A stretch of DNA of 64,000 nucleotides. Source: Ostreococcus lucimarinus (taxonomy: Eukaryota). Every line of letters starts with the position of its first letter. The first letter of the stretch is position 1. Both the position numbers and the translations under genes were made by a program. The stretch lies in assembly GCA_000092065.1 (NCBI GenBank), contig CP000600.1; one strand, given 5' to 3'. Below the pieces are notes generated by a model. The model was not told the DNA's origin. It saw only the letters and a program-made list of their open reading frames with translations, and searched no databases. Positions 5,825 through 61,262 of this stretch are shown piece after piece.

Positions 5825-6288
5825 CCTCGCGTCCCGCGCGTCGTCCGTCTCGTCCCCGCGCGCGTTCGCCTCCGCCCATCCATCCGTCGTCGTCGTTTCC
5901 TCGTCGTTTCCTCCCCCCCCCGCGCCGTCGCCGACGTCCTCGCGCGCGCGCGTCGCACCTCTTCGCTCATCCTCGCGCCTCCGCGCCGTCGCGCGCCCGT
6001 CGTCGTGTGCGGCGGCGTCCCGCGCGCGCGCGACGTCGCCGCGCCGAAATCCTCGCCTCGGCGCCCGCCGCCGACGTCGTCGCTGTGTACCCATACACCC
6101 GTACCCTTGAGTCGTGAACCGTCGACAAAAAGCACGGTCGCGCATCCATCGATCGCGTCGATCGCTCGCGCGCGCGCGACCCGCGCGGCGTCGATCGCTC
6201 GCGCGCGCCCGACCTCGCGACGCGGGTCGACGACGATCGCGCGTCGCGATCCGACGAACCGGGCACCCTCGACCGCACCGCGCGACCG

Positions 6289-8932: not shown

Positions 8933-9622
8933 CTACGGCCTCGAAAAACGCAGAGGCTTGTCTCGCAAGTAATAAAGCTTTGCTCTGCGCACTTTCCTAC
9001 GCTCGACGACTTCCATCGCCTTAATATTCGGCGTGAACAGCGGAAACGACCGCTCGACGACGAGATTTCCTATCGCGCTTCGCAAGGTAAAGCTAGATCC
9101 CATCCCTCTGTGCCGCTTGGCGATGCAAATCCCCGTAAACGTCTGCGTGCGCCTGTTATTCTCCGGCACTTCGAGCGTCAACTTCACCACATCTCCCGGT
9201 CGAAACGGTACGATCGCGCGTTCTTTCGCCAACTCCTTCATGTGTTCCCTCTCAAGCGTCTCCATGATGTGTCCACATCGCTTAAAATAGCTCTTCCTTT
9301 TCCGCAGCGCCCGCGTCGGCGTCCACGGCGCCGCGCCGCCGCCCGCTTTCCCCCATCCCTCTTGCGTCGCCCCGGCCTCGAAGCTCGTCATCGGCGCCTC
9401 CATCCCGCGCGCCTCCGGTTTCAGTTTCTTCGTCGCGTTCGATCGATCGTGTTTGATCGCGCTCGCCGTCGACGTCGCGATCGCGCGTCGTCCCGTCGTC
9501 GCGCATCCGCGCGCATCGATCGTCGTCCCCGTCGTCGCGCGTCCCGCCTCGCGCGCGCCGCGCTCGCCCGCGCGCGCGCACCGCTCGAGCGCGCGTCCGA
9601 GCGCGCGCCACGCGAACGTCAT
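8933..9622 (-). CDS. Organellar ribosomal protein bL19 with N-terminal targeting extension
   Basis: C-terminal 115 aa KELAKERAIVPFRPGDVVKLTLEVPENNRRTQTFTGICIAKRHRGMGSSFTLRSAIGNLVVERSFPLFTPNIKAMEVVERRKVRRAKLYYLRDK is an unambiguous bL19 match. ATG at 9622; the R/A/T-rich leader is consistent with a presequence. Confidence 0.75.
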   Translation of the reverse strand: MTFAWRALGRALERCARAGERGAREAGRATTGTTIDARGCATTGRRAIATSTASAIKHDRSNATKKLKPEARGMEAPMTSFEAGATQEGWGKAGGGAAPWTPTRALRKRKSYFKRCGHIMETLEREHMKELAKERAIVPFRPGDVVKLTLEVPENNRRTQTFTGICIAKRHRGMGSSFTLRSAIGNLVVERSFPLFTPNIKAMEVVERRKVRRAKLYYLRDKPLRFSRP

Positions 9623-9736
9623 TTCGCGCCTCGCCGCCGTCCCTCGGCCGCGCCGCGTCCGATCGCGTCGTCGCGCTGTGCCGCCGCCCGAGGGTTACGC
9701 GCGCGACCGCACCGCGCGGCGCGCGTCGCGCTCGGC

Positions 9737-10930
9737 ATGCTGCGCGCGCGGCGCGCGTGCGAGGCGCTGATGCGCGCGACCGCGCGCGCGACGGCGTCGA
9801 CGCCCGAGGCGCGGGCCGGGGCGACGCCGACGCGCGCGGGACGCCGACGCGCGCGAAGGACGGTGACGCGGCGAACGACGACGACGCGCGCGACGGGACG
9901 CGAGGACGCCGATGGGGCGACGAGGAAACGACGCGTGGTGTTTCTCGGGACGCCGGAGTGCGCGAAGGAGGTGCTGGCGCGGGTGCTGGACGCGGCGGAG
10001 GGGAGGGAGAGCGCGTTCGAGGTCGCGGCGGTGGTGTCGCAGCCGGGACGACCGCGAGGGCGAGGAAGGAAGAGCGATGAAGCGGCGCCGAGCCCGGTGG
10101 CGGAGTTGGCGCTGCGGCGAGGGATGGCGGAAGACAGGGTGCTTTGTCCGGAGAAGGCGAACGAGGAGTGGTTTCTGGACGCGCTGCGCGCGCTCGACGT
10201 CGACTTGGCGGTGACGGCGGCGTACGGGAACTTTTTACCGCAGAAATTCTTGGATATTCCGAAATTAGGGACGTTGAACATCCATCCGAGTTTGTTGCCG
10301 CAGTGGCGAGGGGCGGCGCCCGTGCAACGCGCGTTGGAGAGTGGACAGAGCGAGACCGGCGTGTCGGTGGCGTACACCGTGCTCAAAATGGACGCCGGTC
10401 CCGTCCTCAGACAAGTCACTCGACCGCTTAAAGGGGATGAAAAGGCGCCTGATCTCTTGACTGAGCTCTTCGAGACGGGCGTGGGGGCGTTGTTGGAGGA
10501 ATTACCGTCGGTATTTGCCGGCGACGCGGCGGCTCGAGCGGTGCCTCAGAGCGAGGAAACGCTCAGCCACGCCGCGAAAGTGAGCCCAGAGGAGGGTGAA
10601 TTAGACTTCACGAAACAGTCCGCACTGGAGTGTCACAATAAAGTGCGTGCATTTGCGGGTTGGCCCGGAACGAAAGCGACTTTGAAGATTAAGGCAAACG
10701 GGGACGAAGAATCGAAAGAGGTGGTGCTCAAAATCATCACCACTCGTGTCTCTGCCGAGGGAGATGAAAAGGCGGCGAACGGTCAAGTCGAGGTAACGAA
10801 AAAATTACTTCGCGTACCATGTGCAGGGGGCGGTTGGTTAGAGGTGCTCGAGGTTCAGCCCCCCGGAAAGAAAGCGATGCCGGCGAACGCTTTCATCAAC
10901 GGGATCAAAGGCTCAACCGTCTTCATTTAA
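9737..10930 (+). CDS. FMT: Methionyl-tRNA formyltransferase (organellar)
   Basis: VVFLGTPECAKEVL...VVSQPGRPRGRG...NIHPSLLPQWRGAAPVQRALESGQSETGVSVAYTVLKMDAGPVL are Fmt N- and C-domain motifs. Start is the first ATG (MLRARRACEAL...), which gives an R-rich presequence. Confidence 0.8.
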   Translation: MLRARRACEALMRATARATASTPEARAGATPTRAGRRRARRTVTRRTTTTRATGREDADGATRKRRVVFLGTPECAKEVLARVLDAAEGRESAFEVAAVVSQPGRPRGRGRKSDEAAPSPVAELALRRGMAEDRVLCPEKANEEWFLDALRALDVDLAVTAAYGNFLPQKFLDIPKLGTLNIHPSLLPQWRGAAPVQRALESGQSETGVSVAYTVLKMDAGPVLRQVTRPLKGDEKAPDLLTELFETGVGALLEELPSVFAGDAAARAVPQSEETLSHAAKVSPEEGELDFTKQSALECHNKVRAFAGWPGTKATLKIKANGDEESKEVVLKIITTRVSAEGDEKAANGQVEVTKKLLRVPCAGGGWLEVLEVQPPGKKAMPANAFINGIKGSTVFI

Positions 10931-11896: not shown

Positions 11897-12008
11897 GAGG
11901 TCGCCGAGCGCGTCGTCCGAGCGCGCGCGCGCGTGTGACGACGGGCCGATGATGCCGCGTAAACCCTAGGTCGGGCCGCCCGCGCGGCTCGGCAGAGCGC
12001 GAAGCGCG

Positions 12009-17500: not shown

Positions 17501-17913
17501 GTCTCCGTCTCCGTCTCCCTCTCCTCCGCCGTTTCCTCGTCCTCGTCCGCCCGTCCGTCCGTTGCATCGTCGCACGTCCGCATCATCGCTTCGCAACACG
17601 CCCGCGCGACGATTTCGAGCGCCTCGTCGTCGTCGTCGTCCCTCGTCGCCGTCGCCATCGCGCGCGCGCCCTCGAGCGCGCGTCGTCGACATCGCGCGTC
17701 GTCGTCTCGCGTCATCCCTCGTCCGTTCGCCACGCATCGCATCGCTCGCGCGAGGTTCTCGCGCGTCCACGCCGCGTCGACGATCGCGCGCGGCGTCGAC
17801 ATCGCGCGTCGTCGGTCGGCGTCGTCGAGTGTCGCGCGCGGCGTCGTCGTTTGAATCCGACGCGCCGTCTGAATCCGACGGACGCGCACACGGACGCGCG
17901 CGGAACTCGACAA
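14545..17913 (-). CDS. Large (1122 aa) alpha-helical protein of unknown function
   Basis: One uninterrupted ORF with complex, non-repetitive sequence throughout. C-terminal tail PRKRIRNPYLDAVVAQEGGAQDEYDDMADFIV. No family confidently recognised. Confidence 0.5.
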   Translation of the reverse strand: MSSSARVRVRVRRIQTARRIQTTTPRATLDDADRRRAMSTPRAIVDAAWTRENLARAMRCVANGRGMTRDDDARCRRRALEGARAMATATRDDDDDEALEIVARACCEAMMRTCDDATDGRADEDEETAEERETETETWLGTLCATASTSGRALERALEATRRAAAMDERFTTRVCEEYDASVRRLGDAKDATLAVLIEARAWGRAREASASASDVERALRACDARSLESMAKYVLEEVKESDAHVLRAIARRDSEICVEILGALLSRLSTGVQTRAALRALEEIVQMDAAPHVDRMSSEIQRAVEYLPQLSVKEGGDIARRAVAALSKISGVAPVMALFESVEDDCSKTILGLQMLGDMMRAGNHLDAGIAALERAMVDDRSSVRQHAFVVATTLITSESIADEAMLQKAEAEAKVDAILSINEILRALSQRRETPTLSFATIQSLTSSLGLILALDVSGKSVKNREILRNSLRLLSALSECLILQAESARDTDGEQINFVDADAFDDANDKVESHVLAKLVPVVEVVLDSMLSYSTWFKEMLEQLEHPKIDEGTSETLESWITRLLFMHLQLSCGSENTRAGNVSSALCIDSCVRLSSDDAEWSPELQRHITQICAHTLRVARVSSGDMRASNQYATLMNTCARQCVETLRDNWFAFDKKELAPNSDLWSTKTTLDALQTLRALCELAVSRNASYGPDLGVLQDLMRASFTDDELENAAKEVASYGKPHLARSDYEAAGRAGVEAPVSGVVAALVTSLHHQLQETYNSRTVIDTWDRIINEVLNLLDTMLPLVENADLASASVVMLEDDIIQLRELPIEPTCHIACTILQYHRRRFPLPDCVKTASEMLKMALSYSLTSIPDELNDLLSVLNEIVTDLSSDNDQHGKIEKQDAFIALTTILVKSGDILWRHVHSKQKSLDDVEANFVSLATHSFERCISAASKLSRTDGNQKHLESQRRNASLVLAGIRLHHNTDKMSHLYDVKVLRSFELKRRQFMVVCAGVFTNLRALQLVKNSGTPLDRGLVAIGNALAMDDIELYSENLSRLGESVQNVDGEVLKCCPSNVSSRENSASKPRKRIRNPYLDAVVAQEGGAQDEYDDMADFIVCKPGRDYRTVLGLT

Positions 17914-18050
17914 AGCGCGGCGCGGACGAACGCGTCGACGTCGGCGCTCGCGTCGGCGGCGCGCCTACACTCGACGGCGCCCACGCGCGAGTCGGCATGG
18001 CGCGCGCGCGCGCGCTCGCGCGATTGATGACGACGACGACGCGAGGCGTC

Positions 18051-20578: not shown

Positions 20579-20743
20579 GCGCCGCACCGTGACGACATCG
20601 GCGACGCCGGAGACGCCGCATCGCGTCGCGTCGTCCTGGAGACGCTGGGTCGAAATCGCATCGTCCTGGAGACGCCGCGACGCCCGCGCGGCGCCAGATC
20701 GAGCGGCGACGCGCGTCGCGCCGCGCGTCCGGGACGCGTCGCG

Positions 20744-23903: not shown

Positions 23904-24068
23904 CGCGTCGTCGCGCCTCGACGCGTCGACGTCCGCGCGCGCGCGTCTGCAGCGCTCGTCCGCACACGTCGACCGCGGGCGCGGCGAAGCGACGCGAGAG
24001 GCGGCGCGAGCGAGCGCTCGAGCGAGGGCGACGTCGTCAGTCGTCGAATTCTGACGCTCGACCGCGCG

Positions 24069-27000
24069 ATGACGACCGCGAGCCTCGCGTCGCCGCGCGA
24101 CGTCGCGGAGGAGGAGGACCGACGGGACCAACGACCATCGGCGACGAAACGAAGCGATGACGCGGCGTCTACGAGCGAGAACGACGTGCCTGAAGAATAC
24201 GCTGAGAACGCGAGTGCGGTGATACGCGAAACGCTCGATGGCTTCCTCGAGTACGTCGAGACGTGGGCGCAGAAGACGAGGGAGACCGCAGACAACTTGG
24301 GGGAGGAGGGTGTTTCAAATCGCGGGCCGCGCGCGAGCGGGAACGGGGCGAAGGATGCGATCGTCCTGAACGGCGATCCGCGCGAAAATATACGGATTGA
24401 AGATCTCGTCACGTGCGAAAATGCGCTGTTGAGCAAGACGACGATGATTTTAGCGCATTTAGGCGGCGAAGTCGAGCGGTTGAGCGCCGTGGCAGACGAA
24501 ACAATTTATCCGATGCTTACGACTTTCGGCGAGAGAGCGAATGATGCGGACGTGATGTCCGATGCAGAGTTACGAGATGCATTCGTTGGGAAATTAGAGC
24601 CGCTTCAAGACGCACTGTTATTCATGGATCAAGTCAGAGCGGTCGTGTGTAACTTGTTCACGCAACTCACGGTGGTGTATTCGACGTTCGCGGCATACAC
24701 GCCGTATCAAACTGTGCGTTTGGCGTGGTCATTCGATATGCTCGGTCGTGCACTAGCAATTGGAGTCGGAATTGATGAGGTGGTTAGGAACAATAGGGCG
24801 TTGCGGTCGGCGCTGATGAATTTCAAACGCGTGGTGCTGCTCCTTCGAGCCAATCCCGAGCAGTTCGGCATGAACGAAGTCGACGTCGTGAGCTTGGATT
24901 CGGCGGTTGCGATCATCGAAAATCAATTGCTCTCATCTTCATTCTTTGCCTCAGTGCTCACACAGCTCACAGAAACCGAACAACCTGATCGATTTATCAA
25001 GGAGCTCGCCGGCACAACTCTCGAGCTTCTCGAAAGCACGACGGCTCGATTGAATACCGACTCGGAGCGGTTGAACGATAAACGCACACTGCTGTCGTGT
25101 CTTTGCTTGACTATGCTTCATTCAGGATTAGTTCCCGATATAGCCGATAGAAAACTCTGCATGAAGGCGTGGGAAGTCTACAAGGTGTGCGTGCTGGTGT
25201 CGGTGACGACGACGGTTTCAGTGTGTCCAGGGGCAATACTAGAAGCGCATCTATCTCCAGCCGCACGAGAGTGCTTTCCTGATAATGGTTTAGAATCAGT
25301 GATCTCGTTTCGTCGAGAGACGCTCGAGACTCTGGATGAGACTTTCCCTGCGAAGCTCCTCGATTTGTTGTCGGCTTCAGTCGCCTGGCTCACCAAGTTT
25401 ACGGCGACACCAAACGTCTCGCATAGCTTATCGAGCACAATGAACGCTCGCACGAGTTTGTTTCAGGAGGGTATGAGACTGGTAAATCGACTGCGCCACT
25501 ATACTCAGGAGATCATACACCTCCACGTGTCTCTGGAGGCCCCGGTCACGAAGCGGCGGGTGCGACTCATCGCTCGCGCCGTGGAAATGTTGCAAGCCAT
25601 GTGCGAAGCTTTCACTCAAAATCTCAATTTGAGTTTGGAAGTGCAGCACGTGCTGAAATTTCTAGCAGATAGAATACATCGCATGATGGTACGTTTGAAA
25701 CGCTTCTGAGATCGATCGGCTCACATCTGACCTTTTCACGCAGGTTCCTACTCGGGAATTATTAGAAAACAAAATTTCGACGACGACGACGTCGAGTGGA
25801 TGGGAACGCTTAAAGGCTCAAATTTCGTCGGGAAAAGCCGAAAACAATAAACAGGACACCCTCGCGACGGTCAATATCGCAGGTAAGCTTTTCATTCTCC
25901 GTCTAGATGACGTACAAATTAAATTAATTATTTCATTTATTTAGTGCATGTTTTGTCTGGGCCGGCGACTCGAAAAAGGATGCATGTTCTTCGAATCTGC
26001 CTCGATGCGATCCGTGGAGCGAGTCTTCTCAGTGATGAAGATGTCGTGCTCGCATCTGAGTTCGTGGAACTCGTAGAAGTGCTCTCCACGTACCGCAAAA
26101 GCGTTCAAGATCAATGTGATACTTCCTTTTTATTTTTCACGAGGGAATTATTTCCGGTGTGTTTGGCTGATATTTACGTCAAGCCGAACGAATCTGGACG
26201 TCTTACTTTGCTTGTGAGTGCGTTTCGCAATTGTGAAACGTTATTAATGCGTGCTGGAGCGAGCGATAGCGAAGTGGCGACGTTTGACAATTATATTCGA
26301 ACGTCACTGGAGCGAGAAATAATTCAACCGCTTTGTCGAGATATTGAGACAGATTTGAGGTTGCATCTTCATTCTGCGCGCATAGCAGGCGTCATGAACA
26401 CGAATCCGTTCAAGGATGGCGTTCGAGACTTGTCGTTGTTCACGAATCTGCCGCCAATCTACACGTTGAAGCACCAGGTGCGAATATTATTTATTTAATT
26501 AATTGTGGCGAATTTGAAACTGACCGGATTTCGTCCTCGTCGTTGACAGATCGACATTCGTAATCGCGTCGAAGGTTATTTAAATCAGACCTTCCACAAT
26601 CACACGGCGATTGCTCTTCATAACTGGAAGGTGAGTGATAAAATAATTAATTTGTCCTACTTCGCAACCGAGCGAGCTGCCTTTTACGAAAACGACGACT
26701 AACGATCTATTCGCGCGCAGTCTTACGTGGAAATGAGAAATCTTGCGATAGAAAAGTACGGCTTACGCTGCGCCGAGATTGAGCTTCCGAGCCAGACGCT
26801 CGAACAAGGCTTGGATGTGTTGGAGCTGATGCGCAATATCCACGTCTTCGTGTCGAGGTACAACTACAACTTGAACACACAGTGCTTTGTCGAGAAGGCG
26901 AGCGCGGCGCTCGATCGCAAGCATCTGAACACCATAAGTATTCGGCATGTCGCCAACTCTATCAGAACGCACGGAACGGGCATCACGCACACGACCATCA

Positions 27001-27965
27001 ACTTTGCCTATCAGTACCTGGCGCAAAGATTTCAGATTTTCAACCAGTTTCTCTTTGACGACCACATCAGAAGTCAACTCATGAAAGAAGCTCGAATGGT
27101 GCACGCCGAGACAAAGGCTAAGAGTGATACTATCAAGTTAAGCTCAAAGCAAGCAGGATATCGCGCATCGACTGTGGACGAAAAGTTTGAGTACCCAGTC
27201 GAACGCGCCCTTCGAGTGATGCGCGACATTCGAAAGCTCGGTTTATCGAAGGACGGCTCTTCGTTCATCGACGAGTTCCGTGTGTTAGTGACTGAAATCG
27301 GTAATGCGCTCGGTTTTGTTCGCATGGTTCGTCTCGGTGCGATGCACTACAGCACCAACGCCGCCAAGTTTGTACCGAGTGCGCGCGGGTCGAAGTTCGC
27401 CCTCGATGAGAGCCTCGACGCCGACGGTTTGTCCGAGTGGACAAAGACGGCACTGAAAAATCTGCAGAGTGAATTAAAAGCCTTAAGCACAGGCGGTACC
27501 GATGGTACTGACTATTTTCAAGTCCTCGTATCGGTTTTTTCGACCGAGCTTCGAAAGGGTCACGAACACCTAAAAGACTTTTACTTGGTGCTTCCAGCGC
27601 TCACGATGAGCGCCGCTGAAACCATCCTGGCTTCAAAAGACAAGCTCGTGCGACGTGGTAAAGATTCACAGACCGCCACTTTCACCGATGATGGTTTAGC
27701 ACTTGGGATCGTGTACCTGCTGAGCGTCCTCGATCAACACGAAGCCTTCGATGCGCTGCATTGGTTTGAGTCCGCCTCGCACCACTTCGAAGCGGAGGAG
27801 AAGCGCGCAAACGAGGAAACCGGTGGCACTTTCGGCATTTTAGGTCGTAGCATCGACGAAAAGACCAAGCTTCAGGTCAAGTTGGATAAGATTGACGCGT
27901 TAAGGCGCGAGTTTGTACACTTGAAGCATTCACTCGTCGGCGCGCGAAGCTTTGTGAATTTGTAA
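24069..27965 (+). CDS. WASHC5: Strumpellin-like protein (WASH complex subunit 5 homolog), five exons
   Basis: Exons (±1 nt): 24069–25688, 25744–25882, 25945–26477, 26550–26630, 26721–27965, about 1200 aa in total (human strumpellin is 1159). Introns have canonical boundaries (GTACGT..CAG, GTAAGC..TAG, GTGCGA..CAG, GTGAGT..CAG) and are AT-richer than the exons. The segments ...HNWKSYVEMRNLAIEKYGLRCAEIEL... and ...RYNYNLNTQCFVEK... match the human strumpellin region ...[37 protein letters not shown] (my recall of the family). Confidence 0.5.
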
Positions 27966-32729: not shown

Positions 32730-32794
32730 CGCGCGACGCGCGTCCCGGTGTCCCGGTGTCCCGGCGGCATTCGGCGCCGCGCGACCACGGACCG

Positions 32795-33829
32795 ATGCCG
32801 CCCGACGACGCGCGCGCGAGCGCGAAAGATCGCTCGAGCGCTCCCGCGGAAACCTCCGTCGACGAGACGTCGCGCTACTTCACCGACGGCGAGCGCGAGT
32901 GGTACGACAGCGAACGAATCCGAGCGTGCGCGACGCACTTGCTCGAGCGGTGCGCGACGTGCGGCGAGGATCAGAGCGTGAGCAACGATTACTGGAGACG
33001 CGTGCAGCGGGAGAGGTACGTGCGAGCGGTCGCGACGCGGGTGGCGACGAAAGACGCCGCGAAACCGCGCAGAGTGGTGGTGGAGGTGGAGTGTCCGCTG
33101 TTCGCGCTCGCGCGCGGCGGAAACGCCGTCTTCAACGTGAGCGTCGTCGCGCCTCTGGAGAACTTGTACGCGAAGGTGCGCGAGCGCATAGCGAAGGTCG
33201 TCGAAAAATTAAGGCACGAAGGCTTTCCTTTCCAGGCTTCGGGCCTGGGAGAAGAAATCAATGATTACGTGAATCAATTCTACCTCTCCAGGATGGATTC
33301 TGAACGATACACGGAAAACGGCGTACACGTATTCACACACATTCTCTATCGCGATGAAACCCTGCTGGATTGCATGCCGACCGTGATTGCAAACCAACCG
33401 ACGTTGTCGAAGTTGATTACCGAAAAATCGATGGAATTACCTCCATATCCGCTACTTACGGCTGTCCTGAAGTCGTGCGTCCAACACATGTTTATCATCG
33501 CCGACGCGTACGAAAGCACGGTGCAGCAGTTGGGTGAACCGAATCATTCACTTTCGGACGAAATTTTCTGGATGAATCCAGGCGATACATTTCAGCGGCA
33601 CTTCGTCGATATGTGCAATTTTTTCAATCGTCCAGTAGACGATGTGCGTTTCGTGGCGTGCGATTCGGATAGAAAATTCTTCGTCGTGGAGCCGACGGAT
33701 ACGCCTGAGAAGTTGCATTTGAGAGACCAAACCGAATTAGTGATGGTAAACAGAGCTTTGATGTCTACGATTGAGTTTCTTCAGCACAGGGGAAGCAAGC
33801 TGTTCACACGACCAGCAGGGGGTGTTTAG
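32795..33829 (+). CDS. Hypothetical protein
   Basis: ATG-initiated 344-aa ORF with complex composition (...FTHILYRDETLLDCMPTVIANQPTLSKLITEKSMELPPYPLLTAVLKSCVQHMFIIADAYE...). No family recognised. Confidence 0.35.
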   Translation: MPPDDARASAKDRSSAPAETSVDETSRYFTDGEREWYDSERIRACATHLLERCATCGEDQSVSNDYWRRVQRERYVRAVATRVATKDAAKPRRVVVEVECPLFALARGGNAVFNVSVVAPLENLYAKVRERIAKVVEKLRHEGFPFQASGLGEEINDYVNQFYLSRMDSERYTENGVHVFTHILYRDETLLDCMPTVIANQPTLSKLITEKSMELPPYPLLTAVLKSCVQHMFIIADAYESTVQQLGEPNHSLSDEIFWMNPGDTFQRHFVDMCNFFNRPVDDVRFVACDSDRKFFVVEPTDTPEKLHLRDQTELVMVNRALMSTIEFLQHRGSKLFTRPAGGV

Positions 33830-34576: not shown

Positions 34577-34743
34577 CGGGACGCGAGACGGTCGTCCCGG
34601 CGCGCGCGATCCGACGCGCGCCGTCTTCGCGAGTCGCACTGCGCGACGCGAGGCGACGACGAGAGAAGACGCGCGAAGACGGCGAAGACCGCGAAGACGG
34701 ACGCGTCGACGACGGGAAACCGACCGAGAGGCGACAGCGGCCG

Positions 34744-36053: not shown

Positions 36054-36922
36054 TCATTCATCGTCTTCCCACTCGTCGTCGTCTTCCCATTCGTCGTCGT
36101 CGTCGTCTTCCTCTTCTGGAGTAGGGGTCGCCGGTAATCCGCGTTCAGCTTGCGCGACCCTTCTTCGGCGTTCTTCGATCTCTTTTTGCTTACGAGTTCG
36201 CTCCGCGAGCACGCGAGCTTCTTCGTCTTTGATCGCTCTCGCCTCGCGCGCCTCCACCTCGTGCTTGAGTTTAATCACCCCCACGATCCCACCCACGATG
36301 GCGAAGATAAGCCCCAGAGCTTTCTTCAACCCTCCCGCGGCGTCTTTCACGTTATGTTCCTTGAGCATGGCCACCAATTTCGAAGGCAACGCCCCGCTCA
36401 TCTCTTCCAACTTTTCTCCATTCTTGTACAACTGATACGTCGGAAGCGCCTTGACGTTACACTTCTCCGCCACCGCCGGAACGGCTTCGATATCCACCCT
36501 CACGAAGCGTATGCGTTTAAATTCCGCCGTTCTCGCGAGCGTCTGCATGTACGGCGCCATGGATTTACTCGAAGGGCTGTAGTTCTGTTCGTCGAACGCG
36601 CGCGTCGGGCGACCCCCGCGTCCTCGTCAGTCCTCGCGTCCTCGGTCCTCGGTCCTCGGTCCTCGGTCCTCGATCCTCGATCCTCGCCTCGTTTCCCGCG
36701 CGTCCTCGGTCTCGTCCTCGCGACGGTCTCTCGTCGTCGTCGTCCGCGCTTCGCTTCCCGCGGTCTCGACGCGCGCGTCGGACGCACCGAGACGAACTCC
36801 ACGAGCACGAGCTGATCTTTCCTTCGCAGCGCGCGATCGAACGCCGTCGCCGTCGCGAGCGTCTCCACGCGCGAGAACGCCTTCATCTTTCGCGCCCCGC
36901 CGGCGCGTCGTCGCGTCGACAT
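36054..36922 (-). CDS. Thioredoxin-like membrane protein with a degenerate SPSS active site; two exons (36922–36788 and 36584–36054) split by a ~203-nt GC-rich intron
   Basis: Exon 1 reads MSTRRRAGGARKMKAFSRVETLATATAFDRALRRKDQLVLVEFVS and ends at TCG|GTGCGT. Exon 2 starts after ...GAACAG| with NYSPSSKSMAPYMQTLARTAEFKRIRFVRVDIE...KALPTYQLYKNGEKLEE. The joined sequence is colinear with a thioredoxin fold, where W-CGPC-K is replaced by Y-SPSS-K. It continues into one TM helix and an acidic tail. The ORF track shows the two exons as separate ORFs. Confidence 0.55.
36621..36690. repeat. Heptamer tandem repeat (TCCTCGG/TCCTCGA)n, about 9 units, inside the intron of the thioredoxin-like gene
   Basis: Seen directly in the sequence: tcctcggtcctcggtcctcggtcctcggtcctcgatcctcgatcctcg. 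Confidence 0.85.
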
Positions 36923-43671: not shown

Positions 43672-43874
43672 CGCGCGCGGTCGCGCGGTGCGGGCGCGCG
43701 TCGTCGCGAGGCGTTATCCGCGCGAAAAAGCGACGTTCGCGCGGCGCGTCTGGTGGCGTGCGTCGATCGGGCGGTCGCGAACATCGCGCATCGCGCGTAT
43801 TGCGCGCGCGTATTGTGCGCCGTGCGCACGCGATGGGTGCGCGCGATGCGCGTGCATAAATAAATAAACGACCC

Positions 43875-43914
43875 GGTCGGTCGGTCGGTCGGTCGGTCGG
43901 TCGGTCGGTCGGTC
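43875..43914. repeat. (GGTC)10 microsatellite
   Basis: Seen directly in the sequence, in the isoamylase/lumazine-synthase divergent intergenic region. Confidence 0.85.
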
Positions 43915-44361
43915 GCCCGACCGCGCGGCAAAAGGAAACGGGGGGGTTCTTCGCTCATCAGTCTGACCGCGCGCCGTCCTCTGTGACTTGGAATGTGACG
44001 ACACAGGGCCTTCATCAAGCTAGCGCGCCGCGCGGCGTCCGAGACGCCGCGTCGTCGCGAAGCGGATTGTCGAGCTCGAGCGCGCGGCCTTCTCGGTCGT
44101 CGTCTGAGGTAAGAAGCTTGTTTTCATTTGGAGAAAACTGATTAGGTGTACGAAATGTAGAATACGATCCTGTATTAGTACAATCGTGATGTGCAGACGC
44201 GAGACCCCCCTGGACGTCGCGCGCGCGCGTCGCGGCGCGCGTTGTTACGGGTCCGCCGACGCGCGACGTTCGGGCGGGCGCGGAACGCGCCGAAAACGCG
44301 TTCTAGGGTTGTGCGCCGCGACACTCGTCGTCGCGCGTCGCCGCGCCGCGATTCGCGATCG

Positions 44362-49419: not shown

Positions 49420-49541
49420 CGCGACGACGCGTCGGCGTGTGCGGCGTCGTCGGCGCGCGCGCCATCGCTCCGCCGAGACATCCGCGCGCGGAGGACGCGC
49501 GCGGCGTCGATTCGTCGCGCGGCGACCGGCGACGTCGAGCG

Positions 49542-51809: not shown

Positions 51810-51826
51810 TCACTCACTCGCCCGGT

Positions 51827-51857
<31 letters not shown>

Positions 51858-52394
51858 GTCGACCTCCTTGCCGAACCACTTGGCCACCATCGGCGTCAGC
51901 GCCACCGTCGGCCCGAACCTAATCGGCGAACTCGCCTTATGCGCCGCGTACGCCAGCGCGAACGTCCCGAACTGTTCGCTCGTCGCGTTCACGCTGATCC
52001 CAATCTTATCCAACAGGCTCGCCACGTCCACCCCGCCCGCGACGAGAAAATAAAACACCGTGATCGAAATCAAGCTCAGCGAAATCGACGTCGCCAGATA
52101 CGCCGACCCGTACCGCTTGAGCAATTTCTTCGCCATGTCCATGCGCGACGTCCCGAGCTCTTCCGCGCCCTCGCTCGCGCCCTCGCCCGTCTCCGTCCCT
52201 CCCGCCGCGCCGCCGCCGTTCTTGAACACCTTCCACAGCCCCGCCTCGAGTCCCCACTTTCGCGTCGTCGCGTCGATCTCTCGCTCCTTCGCGTTCTTCG
52301 CCTTCGCCCGCGTCGTCGTCGTCGTTCGCGCCGTCGCGCGTCGCCGTCGCGTCGCGCGTCGCGCGCGCTTCGCCGTTCGCGTCGCGTCGTCCAT
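51810..52394 (-). CDS. DUF1279/FAM210-family mitochondrial membrane protein
   Basis: C-terminal LLKRYGSAYLATSISLSLISITVFYFLVAGGVDVASLLDKIGISVN matches the FAM210/DUF1279 core. Start at an in-frame ATG (MDDATRTAKR...). The rest of the 649-aa track ORF is antisense to MurE and was discarded. Confidence 0.6.
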
Positions 52395-52397
52395 CGC

Positions 52398-52436
<39 letters not shown>

Positions 52437-52632
52437 GATTCGCGTCGTCGCGATTCGCGTCGTCGCGCGCGTCGTCGCGCGTCGCGATCGCGCGCCGTTC
52501 GCGACGGGCGCGATTCTCGCGCGGTGCATCGCGCGCGCGGCGTCGCGCGCGCGGCGCAATCGCGACGCCGCGGATCGCGACGACGCGCATCGCGACGACG
52601 CGATTGCGCCGGACGATGCATAAAACAATACG

Positions 52633-52677
52633 CGCACTGTTTGCGCACACGTATGTAGACACCGAATGTCCGAATAC
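52633..52677. promoter_or_regulatory. Second copy of the CGCACTGTTTGCGCACACG + CCGAATGTCCGAAT motif pair (DUF1279/MurE divergent promoter)
   Basis: Exact 19-mer and 14-mer shared with 30123–30165. Confidence 0.35.
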
Positions 52678-52802
52678 ACACCTTTCATATAATAACCACA
52701 CAAACACCGATCGAGCAAACCCAGCCCGACGCCGCGTCGGATTCGCCAACCGCCGGCGGCGGCGCGCGATCGCACACGACGCCGCGCCGCGCGGACGCCG
52801 CG

Positions 52803-54941: not shown

Positions 54942-54943
54942 CC

Positions 54944-55015
54944 GCGCCGTCGCGCCGTCGCGCCGTCGCGCCGTCGCGCCGTCGCGCCGTCGCGCCGTCG
55001 CGCGCGCGCGCGCGC
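54944..55015. repeat. (CGCCGTCG)~7 octamer tandem repeat followed by a (CG)n run, immediately 3' of the MurE stop
   Basis: Seen directly in the sequence. Confidence 0.85.
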
Positions 55016-55090: not shown

Positions 55091-55351
55091 CTACTCGTCC
55101 TCCGCGAACAGCTCGTTCGCCTTTCGCATCACCGCCGCGACGTTTTCCCTGATGCACGCGCGCTCCTCCGCCAGTTTCGTCACCCGTCGTTCCATCGCGT
55201 CGCGCAGCTTTGCCCCGCTCGCGCGCGCGCGTCGCGCGTCCTCGCCCGCGCGCGCGCACGCGTCCGCCATCTCGCGCGTCGCGCGTTCGCACGCGTCCGC
55301 GAGCGCCGCGCGCGTCGCTCGCTCGCTCGCGTCGTCGTCGTCGTCGCGCAT
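55091..55351 (-). CDS. Possible small coiled-coil protein (86 aa), hypothetical
   Basis: ATG-initiated ORF MRDDDDDASERATRAALADACERATREMADACARAGEDARRARASGAKLRDAMERRVTKLAEERACIRENVAAVMRKANELFAEDE. It starts with the inverted copy of the same ATGCGCGACGACGACGACGACGCG motif that begins the divergent ankyrin gene. Weak support. Confidence 0.25.
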   Translation of the reverse strand: MRDDDDDASERATRAALADACERATREMADACARAGEDARRARASGAKLRDAMERRVTKLAEERACIRENVAAVMRKANELFAEDE

Positions 55352-55422
55352 CGCGTCGCCGTGTCGCGTCTCGGACGTCTCGGACGTCGCCGCGACACTT
55401 CGCGACGCCGACGCCGCGCGCG

Positions 55423-56931
55423 ATGCGCGACGACGACGACGACGCGATGCGCGACGACGCGACGGCGACGCGGTCGACGACGGCGACGACGGGACGCGCG
55501 TGCGCGCGCGCGCGCGACCTCGCGGACGCCGCGCGAAAGGGGTGCCGAGAATGCTACGCGCGTCTGCATCGCGACGAGTACGGATCGCCGCCGTGGAGGC
55601 GCGACGACGACGCGATGCGCGACGACGACGAGGAGACGTACCTGGGATACAGTCTGCGCGGCGTGCGAGAGGCGCTGCAGACGCTGGTGGACGCGACGAC
55701 GATGAAGGACGTCGAGAGGGAACGCGACGACGACGACGCGAAGGCGCGCGCGTCGATCGAGCGCGAGACGCGGCGATCGTTCGCGCTTTGGATTCTTGAG
55801 TTCATGACCGAGCGAGAGTACGAGTGGAAACACATAAACGCGCGAGATTTTCCGAGTCTTGAAGATGGGTTCCGCGTGCTGCGGGAGATTCGATATTTGA
55901 TTTGGAAAATCGGCGACGTCGAGATTCTGCGGGCGGCGGCGAACGTCCGAGAGAGCCATCCCGGGACGGGCGCGCCTCTGGGGGACGGTTTGAGAAATCT
56001 GGACATGTTCGATCACTCAAACTTTGTGATTGCATATTTCCATGTTCCCGTTGAGATCTATCGATTCTATCACGAAGAAATGCCATCGTTGGTGCCAGAT
56101 TTGGAAGATCGGAAAAAATGCAAAGTCTTAGCGACGCAAGGCGGATTGTATCGGAAAAACATGAGCGAATGGTGGTGCGTTGTCGATTATCTTCTCGCGA
56201 TAGGTTACGAGTGGCCCGTGGAAACGATGGCGAAACTTGTTCATTGGCACAGAAAGTTTGACGACACCGAGAAGAAGGCGCTCGAAGATTACAAAGCGGC
56301 CGGGTGCCCGTATCATCCCCGCGTAGTTCGCGAGGCGGCAAAGCAAGGAAGTCTGGATGCTCTCAAGTGGCTGCGTGAGAAAAATGCGCCTTTCGACAAG
56401 TACGCGGTGAGCTGGGCGGCGAATTCCGGGCAAGTGGAGACGCTTAAGTATCTTGTGCAAGAAATCAAGGTCAAACCGGATCCGATGATGTGCGCGCGAG
56501 CGGCCGAGGCGGGCGAGTTGACCGCTTTGCAGACATTGCACGAAGCCGGCGTTCCGTGGGATAAGCGATGTATAATCGCCGCGGCGAAGGAGAAAAAATC
56601 CAAGAAGAAGCGCAAGCGCGAGGAATGGAGTTCGTGGAATAAGCTCGGTCGCATTCGATGTCTGCAATTCGCGCTCGCCTACGGCTGTCCGGGCGCCGAA
56701 GACGCGCTCGCCCTCTCCGACCAAATCTCGGAGAACACCCGCATCTACCTTCGCCAAGTCGTCCGATGCCCCGGCATCAACCACTGGTTCTTCCGAATCA
56801 GCCGCATCCTCGGCAAAACGGTGCAAACCAAGATGCCCGCCGCGGAGCGAACCGTCCTCGAAGTCTGCACCAACGAGCTCCGACTTCGACAACTGAATTT
56901 CGAGAGCGACGCCTTCGCCGGCATCGTTTAG
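55423..56931 (+). CDS. Ankyrin-repeat-containing protein (hypothetical)
   Basis: Three ~33-aa repeats: AAKQGSLDALKWLREKNAPFD / AANSGQVETLKYLVQEIKVKPD / AAEAGELTALQTLHEAGVPWD. The N-terminal domain is unrecognised. Start at the first ATG of the MRDDDDDAMRDD leader. Confidence 0.45.
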   Translation: MRDDDDDAMRDDATATRSTTATTGRACARARDLADAARKGCRECYARLHRDEYGSPPWRRDDDAMRDDDEETYLGYSLRGVREALQTLVDATTMKDVERERDDDDAKARASIERETRRSFALWILEFMTEREYEWKHINARDFPSLEDGFRVLREIRYLIWKIGDVEILRAAANVRESHPGTGAPLGDGLRNLDMFDHSNFVIAYFHVPVEIYRFYHEEMPSLVPDLEDRKKCKVLATQGGLYRKNMSEWWCVVDYLLAIGYEWPVETMAKLVHWHRKFDDTEKKALEDYKAAGCPYHPRVVREAAKQGSLDALKWLREKNAPFDKYAVSWAANSGQVETLKYLVQEIKVKPDPMMCARAAEAGELTALQTLHEAGVPWDKRCIIAAAKEKKSKKKRKREEWSSWNKLGRIRCLQFALAYGCPGAEDALALSDQISENTRIYLRQVVRCPGINHWFFRISRILGKTVQTKMPAAERTVLEVCTNELRLRQLNFESDAFAGIV

Positions 56932-57112: not shown

Positions 57113-58838
57113 ATGCTCGCCAGGCGCGCCCGAAACGTCCGCGCCCTCGCGCACCGCGCGCTGTTCGCGCGCGCGAACGCCTCCGCGGCGTCCGCGGCCG
57201 ACGCGGCGCCGATCTGGACCGGCGACGACGACGATCGGGCGTCGGACGCGACGAACGTTTGGACGCGTCACGGCGCGCCGGAGGCGCGATCGTTCGCGCA
57301 TCGCGGGATATTGGCCGGCGATGACACCAAGGTGAGCGCTCAGCGCGCGCGCGGCGCGGAGGTGGACGAACGAGGCGAGAGGAGGGCGCGCGGAGGCGAG
57401 AAGAGGGCGATCCGCGGGGGGTTTCGAGGACGCGCGAGGCGGGGACGGCGCGAGGCGACGACGCGAGAGAGAGAGCGCGGCGAGGAGAGAGGGATGGTGA
57501 CTGACGATGGAGGCGTGAATGAATTTGTAGGTGACCACGCTCGCGAACGGGCTTCGCGTGGCGACGGAGGCGGTTCCGTACGCGGAGACGGCGACGGTGG
57601 GCGTCTGGATCGACGCCGGGTCTCGATACGAGGACGCGCAGACAAACGGAACGGCGCACTTCCTGGAGCACATGGCGTTTAAGGGCACGAAGACGCGATC
57701 TGCATCGGGATTGGAAGAAGAGATCGAGAACATGGGTGGTCACTTGAACGCGTACACGAGCCGAGAGCAGACGACGTATTACGCCAAGGTTTTCAAAAAG
57801 GACGTCGGCGCGGCGGTGGACATTTTGAGCGACATCTTGCAAAACTCTGCGTTGGAGAACGCGCAAATCGAGCGTGAGCGCGGCGTGATTCTTCGTGAGA
57901 TGGAAGAAGTTGAAAAGGACATCGAAGAAGTGCTCTTCGACCACTTGCATGCGACGGCTTTTCAGCAAACGTCCCTCGGGACGACGATTCTCGGATCGGA
58001 CAAGTGCGTGCGCTCGGTGACGCAAGAAGACTTGCAAACGTACATCAAGACCCACTACACCGCCCCGCGCATGGTCGTTGTTGGCACCGGTGCGGTTGAT
58101 CACGATGAGCTCGTCAAGCTCGCCGAAAAGGCTTTCGCCAGCCTCCCGACGGAGGGTGCGAGCACCAACGCGCTCGTCGCCAAGAACCCGGGACACTTCA
58201 CCGGTAGCGAGGTGCGCATCCGCGATGACGACATGACCACGGTGAACTTCGCCGTGGCGTTCAAGGGCGCGTCTTGGACGTCTCCCGATGCCGTCCCGCT
58301 CATGGTCATGCAAGCCATGCTCGGGAGCTGGGATAAGCAAGCCATCGGCGCGGATGACATGATGTCCCCGCTCGCGCAAGCGTTCTCCGCCAACAAGCTC
58401 GGTAACTCGTTCATGGCGTTCAACACCAACTACGCCGACACCGGTTTGTTCGGTGTGCACGTTTCGAGCGATAACATCGACGGTCTCGACGATACCGCGT
58501 TCGCGGTGATGAGAGAGTTCCAAAACCTCATCTATTGCCCGGAGGAGAATGACTTGTTGCGCGCCAAGGAAGCGCTCAAGTCGTCCTTGTTGTTGCACTC
58601 TGAATCCGGCACCAGCGCGGTGGCGGAAGAAGTTGGTCGTCAACTTTTGACGTACGGCAAACGCATGTCGCGCGCCGAATTGTTCGCGCGCATCGACGAC
58701 GTCAACATCGAAACCGTCAAGTCTGTCGCGTGGAAGTACATTCGCGACCAAGAACTCGCGATCGCCGCCATCGGCCCGACTCAGTTCTTGCCCGACTACC
58801 TGTGGTTCCGCACGTCCACCTACAACAACTTCTATTAG
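57113..58838 (+). CDS. MPPB: Mitochondrial processing peptidase beta subunit (M16), two exons: 57113–57331 and 57531–58838
   Basis: Exon 1 MLARRARNVRALAHRALFARANASAASAADAAPIWTG...RGILAGDDTK is presequence-like and ends at AAG|GTGAGC. The 199-nt intron ends ...tttgtag|. Exon 2 begins VTTLANGLRVATEAVPYAETATVGVWIDAGSRYE...HFLEHMAFKGT (inverted zinc motif HxxEH). Phase 0 on both sides. The junction recreates the conserved ...TxVTTLxNGLRVAxE N-terminus. Confidence 0.8.
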
Positions 58839-61038: not shown

Positions 61039-61173
61039 CCCGCGTCGTCGATTTAAATCTCCAATCGCGCGCGCCTCCTCGTCGCTCTCCTCGTCGCTCG
61101 TCGCCGTCGCGCCGTCGCGCGCGTCGTCGCTCGAGTCCGAGCTCGCGCCGTCGCGCGCGCGCGCGTCGTCGCG

Positions 61174-61204
<31 letters not shown>

Positions 61205-61262
61205 GCGTCGCGATCTCTCGTCGCGCACACGTCGACGCGCCGCCCGGCGCCGCGCGCGCGCC

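What the first reader, a model, noticed from the sequence alone, without database searches (positions are those of the whole stretch)
9622..9737. Array of very short bidirectional promoters (66–225 bp between divergent ATGs)
Divergent start-to-start spacings are: bL19/FMT 115 bp (both organellar translation components, suggesting co-regulation); PNGase/Nup50-like 165 bp (20578/20744); NSUN2/strumpellin 165 bp (23903/24069); SfsA/hypothetical 66 bp (32729/32795); Maf/ArfGAP 168 bp (34576/34744); Nup133/SPF45 123 bp (49419/49542); small ORF/ankyrin 72 bp; MFS/hypothetical 225 bp (61038/61263). The PNGase/Nup50 spacer also contains a direct repeat tcgtcctggagacgc x2.
Basis: seen in the sequence. 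Interest (0 to 1): 0.5.

Follow-up and report, generated by a model that had tools for sequence, protein, structure and literature searches.

The report
Short head-to-head gene spacers in Ostreococcus
The short gaps between back-to-back genes are real, but they are the normal, already published layout of the very compact nuclear genome of the green picoalga Ostreococcus lucimarinus, not a special array of co-regulated gene pairs.

Summary
The window is the reference nuclear genome of Ostreococcus lucimarinus CCE9901: six ORFs are identical to its RefSeq proteins. All eight ATG-to-ATG spacings were reproduced (66-225 bp), and I found six more head-to-head junctions.

They are typical of this genome. 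There are about 40 genes in 62 kb. Median gaps are 165 nt (divergent), 65 nt (convergent) and 262 nt (tandem). Published mean intergenic length in Ostreococcus is under 200 bp, and about 2,288 head-to-head transcript pairs were counted in O. tauri.

The divergent spacers share composition, not a module. GC is 0.71-0.82, CpG makes up 25% of dinucleotides and TA 0.9%, so there is no TATA. Convergent spacers are AT-rich.

Spacer length and sequence are not conserved between Ostreococcus-like relatives. Within the species these spacers are the most polymorphic class.

bL19/FMT adjacency holds only where the whole gene order holds, and is absent in two more distant relatives. One short AAACCCT-like motif is conserved there.

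The 15-bp repeat is real but polymorphic. 'Strumpellin' is really SWIP/WASHC4. Three of the eight pairs involve ORFs absent at the same site in sister species.

Promoter function is inferred, because no TSS data were available.

Verdict: already known, low interest.

The parts
9623..9736 (.). bL19(-)/FMT(+) divergent spacer, 114 nt, GC 0.82. It holds AGGGTT (AACCCT in the sense of bL19) at 9691-9696.
   Evidence: Invariant in 7 population sequences. The orthologous spacer is 168 nt in L017 and about 440 nt in L019.
8933..9622 (-). Organellar ribosomal protein bL19, 229 aa. The Pfam domain starts at residue 121, so there is a long N-terminal presequence.
   Evidence: The N-terminus aligns from M1 with the L017 orthologue.
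9737..10930 (+). Methionyl-tRNA formyltransferase, 397 aa. A second in-frame ATG lies at M12 (9770).
   Evidence: The L017 orthologue also starts MLRA.
11897..12008 (.). It holds a conserved AAACCCTAG block at 11962.
   Evidence: Spacer lengths are 112/113/118 in three species.
17803..17996 (.). It is a polymorphism hotspot.
20579..20743 (.). PNGase(-)/RanBD-protein(+) spacer, 165 nt, with the 15-mer at 20631-20645 and 20661-20675.
   Evidence: The repeat region differs between strains. The spacer is 58 nt in L017 and 246 nt in L019.
23904..24068 (.). NSUN2(-)/SWIP-WASHC4(+) spacer, 165 nt.
   Evidence: The spacer is 311 nt between ATGs in L023.
32730..32794 (.). SfsA(-)/hypothetical 344-aa ORF(+) spacer, 65 nt, with (GTCCCGGT)x3.
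   Evidence: The 344-aa ORF equals XP_001422574.1. It is absent between SfsA and Maf in L023 and L025. Only 5 homologous clusters exist among 1.84 billion representatives.
34577..34743 (.). Maf(-)/ArfGAP(+) spacer, 167 nt, or 203 nt if Maf starts at M13 as in the RefSeq 222-aa model.
   Evidence: The spacer is 192 nt in L023.
49420..49541 (.). Nup133(-)/SPF45-like(+) spacer, 122 nt.
   Evidence: The spacer is 154 nt in L027.
52689..52802 (.).
55352..55422 (.). Small 86-aa ORF(-)/ankyrin ORF(+) spacer, 71 nt. A perfect 29-nt inverted repeat (55327-55355 / 55419-55447) contains both ATGs.
   Evidence: The ankyrin ORF is absent at this site in L027 and L028. All indels in its N-terminus within the population are in frame.
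61039..61262 (.). MFS(-)/hypothetical 273-aa ORF(+) spacer, 224 nt.
   Evidence: The 273-aa ORF equals XP_001422583.1 and has no counterpart in L028.

Best explanation
These are the ordinary 5'-to-5' intergenic spacers of the streamlined nuclear genome of Ostreococcus lucimarinus.

Shown:
- The window is that genome.
- Genes are packed at about one per 1.55 kb.
- Head-to-head spacers are 65-225 nt, tail-to-tail spacers are mostly 23-153 nt, and tandem spacers are mostly 134-570 nt.
- Every head-to-head spacer is an extremely CpG-rich, TA-depleted stretch. The CpG-rich zone runs about 120-300 nt into both coding regions, like a small CpG island.
- Tail-to-tail spacers are AT-rich.

Inferred:
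- Each CpG-rich block is an unmethylated, nucleosome-poor region. RNA polymerase II starts from it in both directions, without a TATA box and with 5' UTRs of a few tens of nucleotides.
- A spacer is 'bidirectional' because two core promoters are squeezed back to back. It is not a selected shared regulatory module.
- Pairings are inherited by conserved gene order and are mostly functionally arbitrary.
- Spacer length and most of the sequence drift freely. Only short motifs are kept, such as an AAACCCT (telo-box-like) element about 45-90 nt upstream of some ATGs.
For: Identity of the genome: ORFs are identical to XP_001422578.1, XP_001422574.1, XP_001422583.1, XP_001422569.1, XP_001422735.1 and XP_001422739.1 of O. 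lucimarinus CCE9901.

Gene map and spacer statistics by orientation.

Composition: divergent spacers have GC 0.71-0.82, CpG 0.254 and TA 0.009. Convergent spacers have GC 0.29-0.40 in 11 of 15 cases. CGCGCG and CGACGCG occur in 14 of 14 divergent spacers. There is a 5'-to-3' gradient in GC and CpG along genes.

No conservation of length or sequence between sister species: bL19/FMT is 114/168/~440 nt and PNGase/RanBD is 165/58/246 nt.

Within-species SNP density is 0.040 per site in divergent spacers against 0.0045 in CDS.

AACCCT: 5 of 18 window hits lie within 100 nt upstream of an ATG (p=0.0012). The motif is kept in orthologous spacers.

Literature:
- Intergenic mean under 200 bp (PMC3236181, PMC2850359).
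- 2,288 head-to-head transcript pairs in O. tauri (PMC4035068).
- In O. tauri, 5mCG falls to a minimum and 6mA peaks at the ATG/TSS (bioRxiv 10.64898/2026.07.10.737489).
- Micromonas transcript-level intergenic distances are 167-211 nt (PMC4815162).
- Footprinting inferred fewer bidirectional regulatory elements in Ostreococcus than in yeast (Piganeau et al. 2009, as summarised in PMC2850359).
Against: No TSS, RNA-seq or chromatin data were examined for this locus, so initiation inside the spacers is inferred and not shown.

Some spacers are invariant in the population sample (bL19/FMT 0 of 114 sites, Nup133/SPF45 1 of 122). The Phd-like/methyltransferase spacer keeps its length (112/113/118) across three species. 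Some constraint therefore exists.

Strand alternation in this region (33 of 46 junctions) exceeds random orientation. This hints at selection on arrangement that a pure drift view does not predict.

No GC-skew switch marking two opposed transcription units was detected.
Confidence: 0.8

Rival explanations
1. Selected co-regulation modules. Head-to-head pairs, bL19/FMT above all, are kept together because one shared bidirectional promoter element coordinates their expression.
For: Both bL19 and FMT carry N-terminal presequences and serve organellar translation. The pair is present in two other Ostreococcus-like species. The spacer is invariant in 7 population sequences. A telo-box-like AAACCCT in the sense of bL19 is kept in L017. 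In land plants, telo-boxes mark genes of the translation apparatus (own knowledge, not tested here).
Against: In those species the entire gene order of about 20 kb is conserved, so the adjacency carries no specific signal. FMT has other upstream neighbours in L021 and L030, while the FMT/Phd-like tail-to-tail pair does persist in L021. The motif is missing in L019, where the spacer is about 440 nt with a microsatellite. The other 13 pairs join unrelated functions. Published footprinting inferred few bidirectional elements in Ostreococcus (PMC2850359, citing Piganeau 2009).
Confidence: 0.12
2. Annotation artefact. Many first ATGs are not the true starts (internal starts, missed 5' exons, spurious ORFs in stop-poor GC-rich DNA), so the true spacers are much wider or the transcription units overlap.
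For: Three genes in the window clearly lack their N-terminal exon in the long ORF: thioredoxin, the M16 peptidase and GOGAT (Pfam matches start at profile positions 36, 40 and 24). RefSeq starts Maf at M13, and uses shorter models for EPSPS and isoamylase. The 86-aa ORF is weakly supported, and its 'convergent' side is GC-rich (0.76), unlike other 3' spacers. hyp344, the ankyrin ORF and hyp273 lack orthologues at the site in sister species.
Against: Six starts equal RefSeq models. N-termini align from residue 1-8 with orthologues for bL19, PNGase, NSUN2, SPF45, Phd-like, the 1085-aa ORF, MFS and Nup133. The next in-frame ATG is usually far downstream, at M26 to M234. Indels in the ankyrin N-terminus are all in frame across 10 strains. 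hyp344 has 66-77% identical homologues elsewhere. The sharp CpG-rich versus AT-rich contrast matches the assigned orientations at 25 of 29 strand-switch junctions: all 14 divergent and 11 of 15 convergent.
Confidence: 0.08

Closest known systems
Genome compaction of Ostreococcus and other Mamiellales (O. tauri and O. lucimarinus genome papers; Piganeau et al. 2009 phylogenetic footprinting by neighbour orientation)
   Same: Same organism and same feature: intergenic regions average under 200 bp, and thousands of head-to-head pairs exist (PMC3236181, PMC2850359, PMC4035068). Micromonas shows 167-211 nt between transcripts (PMC4815162).
   Different: Nothing essential. This window is one local sample of that genome.
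Mammalian CpG-island bidirectional promoters (head-to-head genes under 1 kb apart, TATA-less; own knowledge)
   Same: Head-to-head genes, extreme CpG richness and almost no TA dinucleotides. In O. tauri, 5mCG is depleted at gene starts (bioRxiv 10.64898/2026.07.10.737489).
   Different: In mammals they are a distinct minority class enriched for co-expressed, often related genes. Here they are the default state of about a third of junctions, the spacers are ATG-to-ATG 65-225 nt, and the partners are unrelated. Co-expression is untested.
Yeast divergent promoters that share one nucleosome-depleted region (own knowledge)
   Same: A compact genome with two initiation sites at the edges of one short intergenic region.
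   Different: Yeast promoters are AT-rich and divergent spacers are several hundred bp. PMC2850359 (citing Piganeau 2009) reports fewer bidirectional regulatory elements in Ostreococcus than in yeast.
Plant telo-box (AAACCCTA[A/G]) promoter element (own knowledge)
   Same: AAACCCT(A/G/C) lies 46-89 nt upstream of several ATGs and is conserved in orthologous spacers, including the one upstream of bL19.
   Different: Only 5 sites in the window, some matching only the 6-nt core. Protein binding and function are untested.

Membership tests
Ostreococcus lucimarinus CCE9901 nuclear genome | Encoded proteins identical to the reference annotation | tested here: met
   Six ORFs are identical over their full length to XP_001422569.1, XP_001422574.1, XP_001422578.1, XP_001422583.1, XP_001422735.1 and XP_001422739.1. 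The record is 549,133 bp.
Bidirectional promoter (operational definition) | Two protein-coding genes on opposite strands, head-to-head | tested here: met
   14 such junctions among 39. Orientations are supported by Pfam, by orthologues and by the CpG-rich/AT-rich spacer contrast.
Bidirectional promoter (operational definition) | Transcription start sites less than 1 kb apart | not testable with these tools
   ATGs are 66-225 bp apart in 11 pairs, so TSSs are either closer than that or overlapping. No TSS data were available.
Bidirectional promoter (functional definition) | A shared cis-element drives both genes, and the partners are co-expressed | not testable with these tools
   No expression data could be used. 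The supplement of PMC2850359 lists L19 but not FMT. Indirect evidence is weak: spacers are not conserved and one short motif is conserved.
CpG-island-type promoter | High CpG density and GC content, no TATA box | tested here: met
   CpG is 0.254 of dinucleotides against 0.148 in the window. GC is 0.73 and TA 0.009. The CpG-rich zone spans -150 to about +120 around ATGs.
CpG-island-type promoter | Unmethylated, nucleosome-depleted state | not testable with these tools
   Known only from O. tauri in the literature: 5mCG minimum and 6mA peak at the ATG (bioRxiv 10.64898/2026.07.10.737489).
Conserved functional gene pair (bL19/FMT) | Adjacency retained beyond blocks of general synteny | tested here: not met
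   The pair is kept in L017 and L019, where all neighbouring genes are also collinear. It is lost in L021 and L030.
   The ORFs at 24069-27965 hit WASH-4_N (4.6e-59), WASH-7_mid and WASH-7_C, which are the SWIP/WASHC4 families.

The most novel reading that the evidence does not exclude
Gene orientation in this genome may not be random. Strands alternate more often than chance: 33 of 46 junctions here, and 2,288 head-to-head transcript pairs were counted in O. tauri (a count that cannot be turned cleanly into a fraction of junctions). Two genes then share one CpG-island-like start region and two share one AT-rich end region. Streamlining could select for this, because a tandem junction needs both a terminator and a promoter (median 262 nt, against 165 and 65). 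The shared start regions are also the polymorphism hotspots of the population, with about nine times the SNP density of coding sequence. That would fit promoter-centred recombination and GC-biased gene conversion building the CpG islands and the 5'-to-3' GC gradient.
Probability: 0.25. Interest if true: 0.35.

Novelty: already known. Interest (0 to 1): 0.12.

Why it matters
It matters little as a discovery. Very short intergenic regions and abundant head-to-head pairs are textbook features of Ostreococcus, and neighbour orientation was already analysed genome-wide (Piganeau et al. 2009, via PMC2850359; PMC4035068).

The practical value is modest:
- The window gives well-defined minimal promoter candidates of 65-225 bp for algal engineering.
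- It shows a clean compositional rule (CpG-rich 5' spacers, AT-rich 3' spacers) that can check gene orientation and start calls.
- It offers one candidate motif (AAACCCT).

If the strand-alternation excess and the promoter-centred polymorphism hold genome-wide, they would bear on how streamlining and recombination shape minimal eukaryotic genomes.

Tried and rejected
- GC-skew switch within divergent spacers, as a mark of two opposed transcription units: not significant (Wilcoxon p=0.12; sense-strand skew upstream of ATGs p=0.43).
- Global alignment of orthologous spacers: scores are only 1.4-6.3 SD above mononucleotide shuffles, which the CG-repeat composition inflates. MAFFT shows only short blocks.
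- Unbiased k-mer enrichment in divergent spacers gave only CG-repeat words (CGCGCG, CGACGCG), which is composition and not a discrete motif.
- The 15-bp repeat as a regulatory element: rejected. Only 1 of 6 near-identical strains has even one exact copy, and other spacers carry 15-17 nt repeats too.
- Lineage-specific ORFs as genes born at bidirectional promoters: 3 of 3 are head-to-head with a conserved gene. About 70% of genes here have a head-to-head neighbour, so this is not significant. hyp344 also has 66-77% identical homologues elsewhere.
- RNA genes hidden in the spacers: no tRNA and no Rfam hit at gathering score.
- Co-expression from the O. tauri diel microarray supplement: FMT is not listed.
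- Tandem Repeats Finder at low score was too noisy in this CG-rich DNA to be informative.
- The sigma-70 promoter/terminator scan was not used, because it does not apply to a eukaryote.
- The Derelle 2006 and Piganeau 2009 papers are not held in the library.
Full report
**What the window is.** The window has GC 0.60 and is packed with long ORFs on both strands. Six ORFs are identical over their full length to RefSeq proteins of Ostreococcus lucimarinus CCE9901, on a 549,133-bp record. They are UbiA (XP_001422578.1), the 344-aa hypothetical (XP_001422574.1), the 273-aa hypothetical (XP_001422583.1), the RanBD protein (XP_001422569.1), Nup133 (XP_001422735.1) and the MFS transporter (XP_001422739.1). 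Metagenome contigs L001-L016 are 99.0-99.5% identical and serve as a population sample of the same species. The window is therefore a stretch of a published nuclear chromosome of a green picoalga.

**Check of the observation.** All eight spacings are reproduced from first-ATG ORFs. The unnamed 'small ORF' is 55091-55351 (-) and the ankyrin ATG is at 55423.

Pfam confirms bL19, FMT, the PNGase-type transglutaminase/Rad4 protein, a RanBD protein, NSUN2, SfsA, Maf, ArfGAP, a G-patch+RRM (SPF45-like) protein and an MFS transporter. Nup133 rests on a sub-threshold Pfam hit plus source names.

One label is wrong. The ORFs 24069-25709, 25980-26498 and 26733-27965 hit WASH-4_N, WASH-7_mid and WASH-7_C. 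This is SWIP/WASHC4, split into three ORF pieces, and not strumpellin.

The 15-mer repeat is present at 20631 and 20661.

**Gene map.** I combined three sources: Pfam, gene calls on related contigs, and tblastn against other Ostreococcus-like species. The related loci are L017, L019, L023, L025, L027 and L028, which show 72-74% nucleotide identity where alignable and collinear gene order. This gives about 40 genes between 1963 and 63958, or 0.65 genes per kb, with 86% of the DNA inside ATG-to-stop spans.

Some of my first ORF picks were wrong and were corrected:
- The real gene at 51810-52688 is a minus-strand FAM210-domain protein, head-to-head with MurE at 114 nt.
- At 5.4-7.4 kb, the conserved gene is the plus-strand 351-aa ORF.

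**Are the spacers unusual?** They are not. The 14 divergent gaps have median 165 nt, the 15 convergent gaps median 65 nt, and the 10 tandem gaps median 262 nt. A head-to-head spacer that must serve two gene starts is no shorter than expected from the rest of the window.

The literature gives the same picture:
- O. tauri intergenic regions average below 200 bp (PMC3236181, PMC2850359).
- 2,288 head-to-head transcript pairs involving 3,884 transcripts were counted in O. tauri (PMC4035068).
- In the sister genus Micromonas, evidence-based transcripts lie 167-211 nt apart on average, and convergent pairs often overlap (PMC4815162).
- Orientation-dependent footprinting between O. tauri and O. lucimarinus has been published. 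It was summarised as indicating fewer bidirectional regulatory elements than in yeast (Piganeau et al. 2009, as cited in PMC2850359). I could not read the original.

**What the spacers have in common.** They share composition, not a module.
- Divergent spacers have GC 0.71-0.82. CpG makes up 25.4% of dinucleotides, against 14.8% in the window. TA makes up 0.9%, so a TATA box is essentially excluded.
- The only enriched words are CG repeats, such as CGCGCG and CGACGCG, each present in 14 of 14 spacers.
- The CpG-rich zone extends from -150 to about +120 of the ATGs. It then decays along the genes to GC 0.56 and drops to 0.44-0.46 just after stop codons.
- Convergent spacers are AT-rich, with GC 0.29-0.40 in 11 of 15.

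This contrast independently supports the assigned orientations. It makes the head-to-head spacers resemble small CpG islands. In O. tauri, 5mCG reaches its minimum and 6mA its maximum at the ATG/TSS (bioRxiv 10.64898/2026.07.10.737489). That fits open, unmethylated start regions, but for this locus it remains an inference.

**Conservation.** Gene order, including bL19/FMT, is conserved in the other Ostreococcus-like contigs. Spacer lengths are not conserved:
- bL19/FMT: 114, 168 and about 440 nt. The longest holds a TGATGACCGA-type microsatellite.
- PNGase/RanBD: 165, 58 and 246 nt.
- NSUN2/SWIP: 165 and 311 nt.
- Nup133/SPF45: 122 and 154 nt.
- Phd-like/methyltransferase is the exception and keeps its length: 112, 113 and 118 nt.

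Alignments show only short conserved blocks.

Within the species, SNP density is 0.040 per site in divergent spacers and 0.0045 at all three codon positions. Most of the most polymorphic 100-nt bins lie in divergent spacers. Individual spacers differ: bL19/FMT has 0 variable sites of 114, while the 1085-aa ORF/COX15 spacer has 20 of 194.

**bL19/FMT.** The adjacency is not informative, because it occurs only where all neighbours are collinear. In two more distant relatives, FMT follows a different plus-strand gene (L021, FMT 60% identical, GC 0.70; L030, 66% identical). The tail-to-tail FMT/Phd-like pair does persist in L021.

One positive hint remains. AACCCT, read in the sense of bL19, lies 74 nt from the bL19 ATG and 46 nt from the FMT ATG. 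It recurs as AAACCCT in the L017 spacer. The same core is kept upstream of the methyltransferase gene in all three species, and upstream of the bHLH gene in L019 as well as in this window. In the window, 5 of 18 occurrences lie within 100 nt upstream of an ATG (p=0.0012). The motif resembles the plant telo-box, which from my own knowledge is linked to translation-apparatus genes. This is a lead, not evidence of co-regulation.

**The 15-bp repeat.** It is statistically unusual for that spacer (16 of 2000 shuffles). However, other spacers contain 15-17 nt repeats too. These include (GTCCCGGT)x3 in SfsA/hyp344 and CGAAGAC-type repeats in Maf/ArfGAP. Among six near-identical strains, only one has even a single exact copy, and the central 45 bp of that spacer exists as several haplotypes. 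It is best read as slippage-prone low-complexity DNA.

**Start-codon caveats.**
- Maf is annotated from M13 in RefSeq, which makes the spacer 203 nt instead of 167.
- FMT has a second ATG at M12.
- Thioredoxin, the M16 peptidase and GOGAT clearly lack 5' exons in their long ORFs, so their spacers are undefined.
- The 86-aa ORF is only weakly supported.
- For most listed pairs the first ATG is supported by RefSeq identity or by N-terminal alignment to orthologues.

**Partners absent in sister species.**
- The 344-aa ORF sits in about 1.1 kb that the others lack between SfsA and Maf.
- The ankyrin ORF is absent in L027 and L028.
- The 273-aa ORF is absent in L028.

These ORFs look real. Two are RefSeq models. 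The 344-aa ORF has 66-77% identical homologues, though only five clusters among 1.84 billion representatives. Indels in the ankyrin N-terminus are all in frame in the population.

**Verdict.** 'Bidirectional promoter' holds in the weak sense that two TATA-less, CpG-rich start regions are squeezed back to back. It is unproven in the strong sense of shared elements and co-regulation, and for bL19/FMT the comparative evidence is mostly negative.

The least ordinary things seen are side observations:
- an excess of strand alternation (29 of 39 junctions, and 33 of 46 with L032);
- the very sharp compositional contrast between 5' and 3' spacers;
- polymorphism concentrated in 5' spacers.

Noticed in passing
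window 1963-63958, plus L032 1-8740: Gene strands alternate more often than chance: 29 of 39 junctions switch strand (p=0.003), and 33 of 46 after adding 8.7 kb beyond the window end (p=0.0045). Without the weak 86-aa ORF the count is 27 of 38 (p=0.014). Two contigs from more distant relatives show 7 of 14.
   Followed up: partly
window, all intergenic spacers: There is a sharp compositional rule. 5'-5' spacers have GC 0.71-0.82 with CpG at 25% of dinucleotides. 3'-3' spacers have GC 0.29-0.40. Tandem spacers are intermediate. GC and CpG fall steadily from the 5' to the 3' end of genes (0.75 to 0.56).
   Followed up: yes
window 17900-17996, 20600-20700, 43700-44300, 52700-52800, 6100-6288: Among near-identical strains, the most polymorphic 100-nt bins lie in head-to-head spacers. 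SNP density there is about nine times that of coding sequence. The three codon positions show equal SNP density, which is itself odd.
   Followed up: partly
window 9691, 11962, 13621, 30041, 44305: A telo-box-like AACCCT/AAACCCTA motif lies 46-89 nt upstream of ATGs (5 of 18 window hits, p=0.0012). It is conserved in orthologous spacers of sister species for bL19/FMT, the methyltransferase gene and the bHLH gene.
   Followed up: partly
window 55327-55355 and 55419-55447: A perfect 29-nt inverted repeat contains the ATGs of both the 86-aa ORF (-) and the ankyrin ORF (+), so both proteins begin MRDDDDDA. Only 3 of 2000 dinucleotide shuffles reach this length. One strain (L011) has ACG in place of the ankyrin ATG.
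   Followed up: partly
window 32795-33829, 55423-56931, 61263-62084: Three ORFs (344 aa, ankyrin 502 aa, 273 aa) have no counterpart at the same site in sister-species contigs. The 344-aa ORF sits in about 1.1 kb absent between SfsA and Maf elsewhere, and belongs to a tiny family (5 clusters among 1.84 billion representatives).
   Followed up: partly
window 24069-27965: A SWIP/WASHC4 (WASH complex) gene lies in three ORF pieces, with gaps at 25710-25979 and 26499-26732 that are presumably two introns. It sits in the lowest-GC part of the window (0.49-0.53). The same three-piece structure occurs in L023.
   Followed up: no
window 54942-55010: A (GCCGTCGC)n microsatellite of about 7 copies follows the MurE stop codon directly. 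It makes this nominally 3'-3' spacer GC-rich (0.76) and length-polymorphic, with 18 deleted sites among strains.
   Followed up: no
L019 about 9800-10050: In a lower-GC Ostreococcus-like relative, the bL19/FMT spacer is expanded to about 440 nt by a TGATGACCGA-type microsatellite.
   Followed up: no
window 36054-36560, 57672-58838, 1-982: The long ORFs of thioredoxin, the M16 peptidase and GOGAT start inside their Pfam domains (profile positions 36, 40 and 24). Each must therefore have an upstream 5' exon, and the spacers next to them are undefined.
   Followed up: no
window divergent spacers: Spacer lengths cluster at 112/114/114/122 nt and at 165/165/167 nt. With only 11 values this may be chance.
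   Followed up: no
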